A stretch of 53,420 bases of DNA. Source: Alphaproteobacteria bacterium. Lineage in GTDB: Bacteria; Pseudomonadota; Alphaproteobacteria; Rickettsiales; Rickettsiaceae. The stretch lies in the NCBI GenBank assembly GCA_013298405.1, contig JAAFHP010000001.1, positions 1-53,420 of the forward strand. Reading direction: 5' to 3'. Positions 2-1,138 of the stretch are shown piece after piece (within the stretch, counting starts at the first letter, position 1; the number at the start of each line of letters is the position of its first letter). Made by a program: the position numbers and the translations under genes. The notes under the pieces are model-generated. The model ran no database searches and was not told where the DNA came from. It saw only the letters and a program-made list of their open reading frames with translations.

Positions 2-1138
2 GTTAGATTAGAAGTCAGAGAGGATATAGGAGAGAGTATAAAATATATAAAGGAGACATTAAGGCAGATTCCTAATAAAGGTATAGGTTACGGTCCACTA
101 ATTGGCTATAAGGAGGAATTATTACCTAAAATTAGTTTTAACTACCTGGGACAATTTGATAATAACAGTAATTCTGATGTGAGTACTACTTCTTGGGGGA
201 TTGTAGAGGAGGTTTCTGGTACTTCTATAGATAATAGAAATAATGATAGTAATTTTATAAATATTAATGGCTTTATAAATAATGAAATATTAATTTTTAA
301 TATTAAAACTAAGCTTGATATTAAAAAAGTAGATTCTTTTACAAAGTCATTTGAAAAGTGGCTAAAAAAAGTAATATTACATTGTGTTTATCAAAATGTT
401 GTTTCATATTCTCCAGCAGATTTTGAAGATTTTTGTCCATATGTTTTATTTAATCAAAAGAAGCAAGTACAAACACAAAATCGTTTATTTTTAATGCCTC
501 CAGGAGAAGGAGGTGCAGAAAGTTACTTTAATAATATTATACCTAATTTAGAAAATATAAATTTAGTAGCGTTTAATAACTACTATAATTTTCTAAAAGA
601 AAAAGAGAAAAGTAGTTTATGGCAAGATATTACATATGAAAAATTAGCTGTGTACTATATTGCATATATGAAATCTATTCAATCGAGTGGACCATACAAT
701 TTATTTGGGTGGAGCTTTGGAGGGGTTTTAGCGCTTGAAGTTTCTAGACAACTAGTTTCTAGAGGAGAGAAAGTGAAAAATATATTTATGATAGATTCCT
801 TATTTAATTGTAATTTTGCAACAACCCAAAGTAAAGCTAAGTCTGACCATATTGTAGATGATATTAATTATAAATATTTACCAAAAAATGTGAGATTAAC
901 AAACTCAAAAATATATTTATTTAAAGCAAACAAATATATTGATAAGGAAAATAATTCCGAGGACATGCATAATTTTTTTAAATATTATGTTAAAGAAACT
1001 GAATGTAATAATCTTAAATTTGTTTTAGCTGAAAACACTAACATACACTTAGAGAAGCTTGAGGCTAATCACTATAGTTGGGTTAATAATCAAAATGATA
1101 TAAAAAAAATATGCAATATAATAATTAAGGAAATGTAA
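2..1138 (+). CDS. 3' end of a non-ribosomal peptide synthetase: C-terminal part of an epimerization (E) domain fused directly to a thioesterase (TE); ACV-synthetase (PcbAB)-like. 5'-truncated by the window edge
   Basis: Frame +2 is open from base 2: VRLEVREDIGESIKYIKETLRQIPNKGIGYG...PKISFNYLGQFD, matching E-domain core motifs PxxGxGYG and FNYLG[QR]. It continues into LFLMPPGEGGAESYFNNI, NLVAFNNYY, GPYNLFGWSFGG (GxSxG nucleophile) and a terminal HYSWV. The listed 179 start is internal. Confidence 0.9.
   Translation, partial: VRLEVREDIGESIKYIKETLRQIPNKGIGYGPLIGYKEELLPKISFNYLGQFDNNSNSDVSTTSWGIVEEVSGTSIDNRNNDSNFININGFINNEILIFNIKTKLDIKKVDSFTKSFEKWLKKVILHCVYQNVVSYSPADFEDFCPYVLFNQKKQVQTQNRLFLMPPGEGGAESYFNNIIPNLENINLVAFNNYYNFLKEKEKSSLWQDITYEKLAVYYIAYMKSIQSSGPYNLFGWSFGGVLALEVSRQLVSRGEKVKNIFMIDSLFNCNFATTQSKAKSDHIVDDINYKYLPKNVRLTNSKIYLFKANKYIDKENNSEDMHNFFKYYVKETECNNLKFVLAENTNIHLEKLEANHYSWVNNQNDIKKICNIIIKEM

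What the first reader, a model, noticed from the sequence alone, without database searches (positions are those of the whole stretch)
2..1138. ACV-synthetase (PcbAB)-like NRPS terminus in a Rickettsiaceae-like endosymbiont genome
Seen: an open frame from base 2 carries E-domain motifs (LRQIPNKGIGYG, FNYLGQ) and runs directly into a TE with no intervening PCP. Established: the E-TE terminus is characteristic of ACV synthetases, which make the LLD-aminoadipyl-Cys-Val precursor of penicillins and cephalosporins. The TE string LFLxPPGEGGAESYFNNI...VxFNNYY...GPY...GWSFGG...HxSWV matches the ACVS TE as I recall it, and it is much more specific than a generic NRPS TE. Inference: an intracellular alphaproteobacterium carries a horizontally acquired ACVS-related assembly line making a peptide with a C-terminal D-residue, possibly a beta-lactam precursor used in defensive symbiosis or competitor exclusion. 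Only the last ~380 aa are visible.
Basis: partly seen in the sequence, partly recalled or inferred. Interest (0 to 1): 0.88.

Follow-up and report, generated by a model that had tools for sequence, protein, structure and literature searches.

The report
Penicillin-precursor lookalike synthetase in an endosymbiont
The tail of a likely horizontally acquired peptide-assembly gene in a Rickettsia-like bacterium is a cousin, not a copy, of the penicillin-precursor enzyme: it likely finishes an unstudied, probably formylated peptide predicted to end in cysteine and D-valine, and no penicillin ring-forming enzyme was found in this incomplete genome.

Summary
In detail: window 2-1138 is a 5'-open frame encoding the last third of an epimerisation (E) domain fused directly to a thioesterase (TE) with an intact triad.

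It is not an ACV synthetase. True ACVS forms a 100/100 clade that excludes it (AU p=2e-6), and its 11 closest full-length relatives lack ACVS codes. No IPNS was found in this genome (92% complete) or in 131 family genomes.

It belongs to an undescribed sister radiation of low-GC NRPSs that share this terminus. Its nearest tri-modular relatives (57% and 52% identical) read A(Orn/Lys-like)-T-E-C-A(Cys)-T-C-A(Val)-T-E-TE; related members carry an N-terminal formyltransferase. Their Cys and Val domains are unrelated to those of ACVS, so Cys-D-Val is convergent.

The upstream modules are unassembled. Public contigs of a ~95% identical strain fork at base 202 into an internal E-C junction of the same type, so a second E domain exists. 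The gene lies in a low-GC stretch absent from the closest genome, beside an extra folD (possible formyl supply).

One relative (L096) sits beside an IPNS homologue that lacks the ACV-binding residues. The scan had noted a related NRPS tail in another endosymbiont.

The parts
2..430 (+). C-terminal third of the terminal epimerisation (E) domain of an NRPS (aa 1-143); the gene runs off the contig start
   Evidence: TIGR01720 aa 9-143, E 3.6e-25; GrsA E domain, E 1.8e-12
2..202 (+). E-domain DNA also present, about 95% identical, in an internal T-E-C unit of a close strain; likely reason for the contig break
   Evidence: X4 3278-nt contig matches 1-202 then diverges; the same contig maps to the module-2 C domain of G468; its in-frame continuation matches G468's internal E tail at 8 of 10 residues, the terminal one at 3 of 10
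482..1138 (+). Type I thioesterase fused directly to E, no carrier domain between; ACVS-like motif at 485-538; predicted triad S238 (713-715), D265 (794-796), H357 (1070-1072)
   Evidence: PF00975 E 1.9e-24; invariant residues; model and fold match
1184..2179 (+). Aldo-keto reductase (Kv-beta-like), 45 bases after the NRPS stop; possibly co-transcribed; role unknown
   Evidence: PF00248, TIGR01293 below cut-off; 0 of 27 other genus genomes; bridged to the TE end by an X4 contig, 1032-2186
2187..3548 (-). Dicarboxylate/amino acid:cation symporter, non-native type (true start probably near 3370)
   Evidence: PF00375; 54% identical to a gene about 20 kb from the related NRPS in G812
3541..4773 (+). 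Second dicarboxylate/amino acid:cation symporter, non-native type
   Evidence: PF00375; only 20-25% identical to matches in other genus genomes
5428..6330 (+). Extra, divergent folD copy; could supply 10-formyl-THF to an NRPS formylation domain (inferred)
   Evidence: PF00763/PF02882; the native folD is on C50, 89% to G010 and in the usual gene order, while this copy is 57% to it and on a long branch
1..6493 (.). Stretch absent from the closest genome G010 at this locus; GC 0.26-0.31 in the first four genes against 0.35 genome-wide; native synteny resumes at 6494
   Evidence: blastn against G010; gene GC

Best explanation
This is the terminal E-TE of a likely horizontally acquired, multi-module NRPS from a sister lineage of ACV synthetase, most likely of the (F)-A-T-E-C-A-T-C-A-T-E-TE type, predicted to release a linear, probably N-formylated D-Orn/Lys-L-Cys-D-Val tripeptide rather than ACV. 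Shown: E fused to TE, intact triad residues, placement outside ACVS, and an internal T-E-C unit with near-identical E DNA in a close strain. Inferred from relatives: module 1 loads a basic residue, which is formylated from 10-formyl-THF (perhaps helped by the extra FolD) and epimerised; a D-C-L condensation domain adds L-Cys; module 3 adds Val; the E domain seen here epimerises it on the upstream carrier; the TE hydrolyses the D-terminal peptide as in ACVS. The product would be a protease-resistant thiol peptide, most plausibly a defensive or metal/redox-active metabolite or the precursor of one. No cyclising oxidase is visible.
For: Tree of E-tail+TE: the query is in a 6-row clade (100/100) with P0001, P0002, G468, P0248 and G812; ACVS is a separate 22-row clade, 100/100; AU p=2e-6. 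G468 (same family, 4187 aa, 57-58% over the whole fragment) and P0248 (52%) both read DGENIGSVDK / DLYNLSLIWK / DAFWLGGTFK with E in modules 1 and 3. P0252 (full length, with formyltransferase) and P0254 share modules 1-2 and end in a DASTVAAVCK module. The nearest hit P0001 (69%) starts with the same formyltransferase and A1. The same code extraction returns EPRN/DHES/DFES codes for ACVS genes that sit next to IPNS. DAFWLGGTFK is listed as Val in PMC9113097. The A2 domain's best single-domain PDB match is bacillamide BmdB (E 1e-118). A similar Orn/Lys code, DMEDVGSVDK, is in PMC12283262. Reads: X4 shows the internal T-E-C unit. X2, which is identical to the window on its listed pieces, holds a 227-nt piece of the same C domain and a 788-nt contig matching the Cys-type A2 motif region (71 of 83 bases) at depth 2-3. 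X4 holds a contig matching A1 over 215 bases.
Against: No upstream module is assembled in G000. The read evidence is short pieces laid at 80% likeness in mixed communities, where NRPSs of other organisms were also laid (depth 31-38 contigs in X4), and no piece of a Val-type code region was seen. The closest relative P0001 is mono-modular, and G812 in the same clade has a different last module (DAWLLGAVMK), so modules are swapped freely. Substrate calls rest on codes; DGENIGSVDK itself was not found in the one paper supplement searched. No Sfp-type PPTase was found in the assembly, only one 138-aa AcpS-sized match. The formylation domain is absent from G468's gene. The function of the product is untested.
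Confidence: 0.48

Rival explanations
1. Same family and same terminal chemistry, but a longer or different line with several E modules, making another D-rich linear peptide (as in L096, P0253, P0257 or the Psychromonas giants).
For: The terminus is attached to very diverse module sets. The X4 internal T-E-C contig has depth 12.4 against 6.1-6.7 for flanking contigs, which could mean more than one internal copy. The same-genus genome G013 has a five-module line with three E domains.
Against: Depth of contigs is not copy number, and a two-E gene would also raise it. The internal E tail is of the G468/P0254 module-1 type (8 and 7 of 10). Both intact multi-module members of the query's clade are tri-modular Cys-Val lines.
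Confidence: 0.28
2. A mono-modular F-A-T-E-TE like P0001, making N-formyl-D-Orn/Lys; the internal E-C piece belongs to a second gene.
For: P0001 is the closest relative (69%, 100/100 sister).
Against: P0001 looks like an E1/E3 crossover or an assembly collapse: its A-T-E(N) is 85-88% identical to module 1 of P0248, but its E tail and TE only about 50%, with the switch near where the window begins. The close strain carries an internal E-C with near-identical DNA.
Confidence: 0.1
3. A decaying remnant: the upstream gene is broken and the fragment is inactive cargo of a mobile element.
For: Relatives are often split or flanked by IS elements (G812, G468, G035). No Sfp-type PPTase was found in the assembly.
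Against: 1,137 bases are open with the triad intact. Similar DNA without frame-breaking gaps in the covered coding parts is present in a second strain from another study. The missing genes may lie in the unassembled part.
Confidence: 0.12
4. A true ACV synthetase feeding penicillin or cephalosporin synthesis.
For: E-TE terminus and exact PPGEGGAESY motif, found in 86 ACVS-coded of 91 carriers among the long relatives listed. ACVS does spread horizontally, even into animals (PMC10531068).
Against: AU p=2e-6; 30-41% identity to ACVS-coded proteins against 42-57% to the 11 nearest non-ACVS lines; a second E domain; no IPNS in G000 while the control genome rang; none in 131 family or 401 order genomes.
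Confidence: 0.02

Closest known systems
ACV synthetase (PcbAB; AT-CAT-CATETe, PMC7147772)
   Same: Homologous E-TE terminus without a carrier domain between; same TE motif; three modules with central Cys and C-terminal D-Val in the nearest relatives; linear release expected.
   Different: Separate clade (AU-rejected). Relatives have E in module 1 as well, a basic-residue code instead of Aad, often a formyltransferase, and Cys/Val A domains from clades unrelated to the single clade formed by all three ACVS A domains (100/99). No IPNS here.
Linear gramicidin synthetase LgrA and other formylating NRPSs
   Same: N-terminal formyltransferase before the first A domain (in P0001, P0252, P0272, G013); D-residues made by E domains.
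   Different: Full Formyl_trans_N+C pair, short line, hydrolytic TE release; the F domain is not visible in the window.
NRPS clusters reported in Rickettsiaceae ('Ca. Megaira', Torix/'Ca. Tisiphia', Rickettsia buchneri RAGE-B; PMC10132079, PMC9098888, PMC6300072)
   Same: Sporadic, mobile NRPS cargo in intracellular alphaproteobacteria; poorly assembled because of repeated modules; defensive role proposed; products unknown.
   Different: The passages read name no ACVS-like terminus and no Cys-D-Val product; their supplementary cluster figures were not seen.
Nocardicin NocB thioesterase
   Same: Best PDB match of the TE by sequence (E 4e-12) and by fold; acts on a D-configured C-terminus.
   Different: About 19% identity; NocB TE epimerises by itself (recalled), whereas here a separate E domain precedes the TE.

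Membership tests
ACV synthetase (PcbAB) | C-terminal E domain directly followed by TE | tested here: met
ACV synthetase (PcbAB) | ACVS-type TE motif and Ser-Asp-His triad | tested here: met
   also met by 21 non-ACVS proteins
ACV synthetase (PcbAB) | Falls inside the ACVS clade | tested here: not met
   AU p=2e-6
ACV synthetase (PcbAB) | AT-CAT-CATETe layout with a single E domain | tested here: inconclusive
   Upstream not assembled. A second near-identical E followed by C exists in a close strain, which argues against, but linkage to this gene is not shown.
ACV synthetase (PcbAB) | Aad/Cys/Val codes of EPRN/DHES/DFES type | not testable with these tools
   The A domains are missing from G000; none of the clade members with an A domain has these codes
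Penicillin/cephalosporin cluster | IPNS (pcbC) adjacent or in the genome | tested here: not met
   Downstream gene is an aldo-keto reductase; no match in G000; genome 92% complete and the upstream flank missing
Undescribed (F)-basic-Cys-D-Val/Tyr tripeptide NRPS group (G468, P0248, P0252, P0254) | E-TE groups with G468 and P0248 | tested here: met
   6-row clade, 100/100; G812 with another module set is also inside
Undescribed (F)-basic-Cys-D-Val/Tyr tripeptide NRPS group (G468, P0248, P0252, P0254) | Internal module-1 E followed by a C domain | tested here: met
   Seen in the close strain X4, with a small piece in X2; linkage to the same gene not shown
Undescribed (F)-basic-Cys-D-Val/Tyr tripeptide NRPS group (G468, P0248, P0252, P0254) | A domains coded DGENIGSVDK, DLYNLSLIWK and Val or Tyr | tested here: inconclusive
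   Short contig pieces match the A1 and A2 regions; no code region of A3 seen
Active NRPS pathway | Sfp-type PPTase, transcript, detectable product | not testable with these tools
   No Sfp-type match in the assembly; no RNA run among the 5 runs listed (DNA search)

The most novel reading that the evidence does not exclude
Low-GC endosymbiont-type bacteria run a second, ACV-independent route to a penicillin-like product: a convergently built formyl-D-Orn/Lys-L-Cys-D-Xaa peptide is cyclised by IPNS homologues that have lost the ACV-binding residues (L096: R87, Y189 and S281 changed; P0367: R87 and S281 changed). This Rickettsiaceae-like genome would carry such a line with its oxidase in the unassembled flank, and ACVS itself would descend from this radiation.
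Probability: 0.07. Interest if true: 0.88.

Novelty: new variant of a known kind. Interest (0 to 1): 0.5.

Why it matters
It corrects a tempting misannotation: the E-TE terminus and its motif mark a wider radiation, not beta-lactam synthesis. It also exposes an apparently undescribed group of NRPSs in endosymbiont-type bacteria that is predicted to have reached the Cys-D-Val motif with different A domains. The group gives a concrete, synthesisable target (formyl-D-Orn/Lys-Cys-D-Val or -Tyr) for the open question of what Rickettsiaceae NRPS clusters make, and an outgroup for the origin of ACVS. The neighbouring altered IPNS in L096 is a natural candidate for a cyclase of non-ACV substrates, which engineers have been seeking (R87 variants in PMC13338154).

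Tried and rejected
Finding the rest of the gene in G000: motif scan, PF00501, PF00668, and P0001 and G468 queries found only C1 and an unrelated 1171-aa AMP-binding protein.

The metagenome pattern scan gave 16 loci, mostly fungal ACVS-type genes.

The first code extraction was off by one at position 278 and was corrected. Position 9 of the codes is misaligned for some rows, so searches are used for quoted codes. A mixture-model tree on 153 rows did not finish; the final trees use LG+G4 on 61 selected rows, chosen by me to cover architectures, and have no outgroup, so the direction of descent is not shown.

Chimera at about 4.8 kb: X2 (4665-5296) and X1 (5086-5617) bridge it with no differences, but they may be the source sample. 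X4 cover stops at 4766, so there is no independent bridge into folD.

An attachment-site duplicate of the tRNA-Glu end was not found, so the link to the conjugative element on C37 rests on synteny only. Promoter-like sites were at chance level (46 against 41.9) and no terminator was found.

IPNS-like genes: 0 of 131 family, 0 of 401 order and 0 of 27 genomes of G812's order, and none in G468, G013, G028, G454, G812 or G912. The upstream part of L096 and the neighbours of P0001, P0248, P0252, P0254 and P0367 could not be read. The atlas look-up for the reductase did not complete.

Full report
Observation. The frame at 2-1138 is real and open from the first base of contig C1. Residues 9-143 are the C-terminal part of an epimerisation domain (TIGR01720, E 3.6e-25; GrsA and TycA E domains). 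Residues 161-378 are a type I thioesterase (PF00975; model pLDDT 79, best fold NocB TE), and there is no room for a carrier domain between them. S238, D265 and H357 are invariant in 25 of 25 aligned rows. No other NRPS piece is in the 125-contig, 92% complete genome.

Is it ACVS? ACVS is defined by AT-CAT-CATETe making L,L,D-ACV for IPNS (PMC7147772 and PMC7884236, passages). I took as references Streptomyces loci where such a gene directly precedes an IPNS-like frame (L011, L014, L015) and named ACVS proteins. But 21 of 110 carriers of the looser motif do not, and the 11 full-length proteins closest to the fragment (42-57%) all lack those codes, while ACVS-coded proteins lie at 30-41%. A FastTree of 153 rows and an IQ-TREE of 61 selected rows both separate ACVS (22 rows, 100/100; with four rotifer genes 100/99) from the query. 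Forcing the query into that group costs 92 log units, p-AU 2e-6. No IPNS was found in G000 by family or by protein (the control genome rang), nor in 131 family or 401 order genomes (these two had no positive control inside the set).

What it is instead. The query's clade (100/100) holds P0001 (69%), P0002 (59%), G468 (57-58%), G812 (55%) and P0248 (52%). G468, from another genus of the same family, is an intact 4187-aa A-T-E-C-A-T-C-A-T-E-TE. Its codes, from an extraction that returns EPRNLVEFVK, DHESDIGITK and DFESLAAVYK for the ACVS references, are DGENIGSVDK, DLYNLSLIWK and DAFWLGGTFK. P0248 has the same three. P0252 (4516 aa, with an N-terminal formyltransferase) and P0254 share the first two and end in DASTVAAVCK. 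DAFWLGGTFK is Val in a table of PMC9113097 (passage). DLYNLSLIWK as Cys is partly recalled; it appears in PMC12283262 under a heading I saw only truncated, and the domain's best single-domain PDB match is bacillamide BmdB. DGENIGSVDK resembles the Orn/Lys code DMEDVGSVDK (PMC12283262 section 11) but was not found in that paper's one held supplement. DASTVAAVCK as Tyr is recalled. In an A-domain tree of 68 rows all 24 ACVS A domains form one clade (100/99), while the group's Cys and Val domains lie in separate clades. The Cys-D-Val ending is therefore convergent, joined to a homologous E-TE. P0001 (F-A-T-E-TE) is 85-88% identical to module 1 of P0248 up to mid-E and only about 50% after it, as expected of a crossover or collapse between two E domains.

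Evidence on the missing upstream part. Five public runs from two studies hold the region; four were laid. X4, a strain about 95% identical from the second study, has a 3278-nt contig that matches window 1-202, runs about 2 kb upstream, and then diverges. Laid on G468, the same contig covers an A-domain end, T, E and then the module-2 C domain. Its in-frame continuation after base 202 matches G468's internal E tail at 8 of 10 residues and the terminal one at 3 of 10. So this lineage has an internal T-E-C with near-identical E DNA, which likely broke the assembly and does not fit ACVS. X2, identical to the window on its listed pieces and possibly its source, holds a piece of the same C domain and a contig matching the Cys-type A2 motif (71 of 83 bases) at depth 2-3; X4 holds a 215-base match to A1. 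These are short pieces in mixed samples, other organisms' NRPS contigs were laid too, 99 pieces were not shown, and no Val code region was seen.

Context. Bases 1-6493 are absent from the closest genome G010, which is 87% identical from 6494 on. The first four genes have GC 0.26-0.31 against 0.35 genome-wide. The stretch holds an aldo-keto reductase (0 of 27 other genus genomes), two non-native amino acid/dicarboxylate symporters and a second folD; the native folD is on C50, 89% to G010. FolD yields 10-formyl-THF, the donor for NRPS formylation (established knowledge), which fits a formylating line but is circumstantial. In G010 a tRNA-Glu lies 1.6 kb from the resumption point; in G000 that tRNA is on C37, followed by a serine recombinase and genes resembling a conjugative tra region (the tra labels are recalled, not scanned). 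The NRPS may thus be cargo of an integrative element, as reported for R. buchneri RAGE-B (PMC6300072, passages), but no attachment duplicate was found. An X4 contig bridges TE to reductase, and X2 and X1 bridge the 4.8 kb junction, so chimerism is unlikely though only partly independently tested. The terminus is rare: a full-length E-TE match occurs in 2 of 130 family genomes scored, including G000. In 400 order genomes the only strong TE match was G000, with two weak ones; 401 class genomes gave G000 and G812.

Mechanism. Shown: the E-TE anatomy and family placement. Inferred: module 1 loads Orn or Lys, which is formylated and epimerised; L-Cys and Val are added; the terminal E makes D-Val; the TE hydrolyses a linear D,L,D peptide. 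I give this 0.48, another multi-E line 0.28, a remnant 0.12, a mono-module 0.10 and true ACVS 0.02.

The beta-lactam question. L096, a 35% GC metagenome locus, ends in T-C-A(DASTVAAVCK)-T-E-C-A-T-E-TE. Its first 60 residues match Cys-type A2 domains best (53-58% against 37-44%), and its TE groups with P0252 and P0254 (100/100). It is directly followed by an IPNS homologue (E 1e-87 to solved IPNS). That protein keeps the iron ligands but changes R87, Y189 and S281, which bind the two ACV carboxylates (PMC8378823, passages). P0367 (53%) shares the R87 and S281 changes. [quoted passage not shown] This is one locus, not this genome, so it supports only the low-probability novel case.

Literature. 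NRPSs of unknown product are reported in Rickettsiaceae (PMC10132079 and PMC9098888, passages), and ACVS is reported in animals (PMC10531068, passages). Searches listed no description of this tripeptide group. The library omits most subscription papers, and the supplementary antiSMASH figures of the Rickettsiaceae papers were not examined and may show some of these clusters. An earlier scan note (e1-2720529) describes a related NRPS tail with a private cofactor supply in a Cardinium genome; it is unchecked.

Verdict. A new variant of a known kind: an ACVS-sister NRPS terminus, probably from an undescribed formyl-basic-Cys-D-Val line. Interest 0.5, limited by the fact that only the last 378 residues are in hand.

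Noticed in passing
L096:2161-3156 (-), next to the NRPS at 3357-13976: True IPNS homologue (E 1e-87) with R87, Y189 and S281 changed, directly after a non-ACVS Cys-type/Tyr-type multi-E NRPS and before ABC transporter genes; P0367 is a similar protein. Candidate for new beta-lactam-type chemistry.
   Followed up: partly
L148:665-13228 (G468 C119): Intact, IS-flanked tri-modular NRPS predicted to make D-Orn/Lys-L-Cys-D-Val in another genus of the same family; best cloning target.
   Followed up: yes
L109/L110 (G013 C1 about 653600-679500): Same-genus genome with a 6967-aa F-A-T-C-A-T-E-C-A-T-E-C-A-T-E-C-A-T-TE, a JmjC/cupin oxygenase and an Sfp-type PPTase; JmjC genes also flank related NRPSs in L106 and L159.
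   Followed up: partly
G000 C37:11035-18634: tRNA-Glu followed by a serine recombinase and tra-like genes (with a second tra-like set on C38): a likely integrative conjugative element at the locus that in G010 adjoins the window's native genes.
   Followed up: partly
A-domain tree: All three ACVS A domains form one clade whose nearest rows are A domains of low-GC endosymbiont-type NRPSs (G013, P0253, P0255), hinting that ACVS arose from this radiation; the tree is unrooted.
   Followed up: no
P0256, P0258, P0261 and other Rotaria hits: Rotifer NRPSs carry ACVS-type codes, in some cases rearranged, and form the sister group of ACVS in the E-TE tree.
   Followed up: no
L012, L013 (one Psychromonas chromosome): Two giant NRPS arrays about 90 kb apart, each with this E-TE terminus and no adjacent IPNS.
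   Followed up: partly
window:21898-23829: Homologue of the Rickettsia T4SS effector kinase RisK1 (E 9e-157, below the curated cut-off).
   Followed up: no
window:6522-7745: GT92-family glycosyltransferase shared with G010 at the edge of the inserted stretch.
   Followed up: no
L169:13150-13260 against G000: A short intergenic repeat of about 30-70 bases occurs on dozens of G000 contigs.
   Followed up: no
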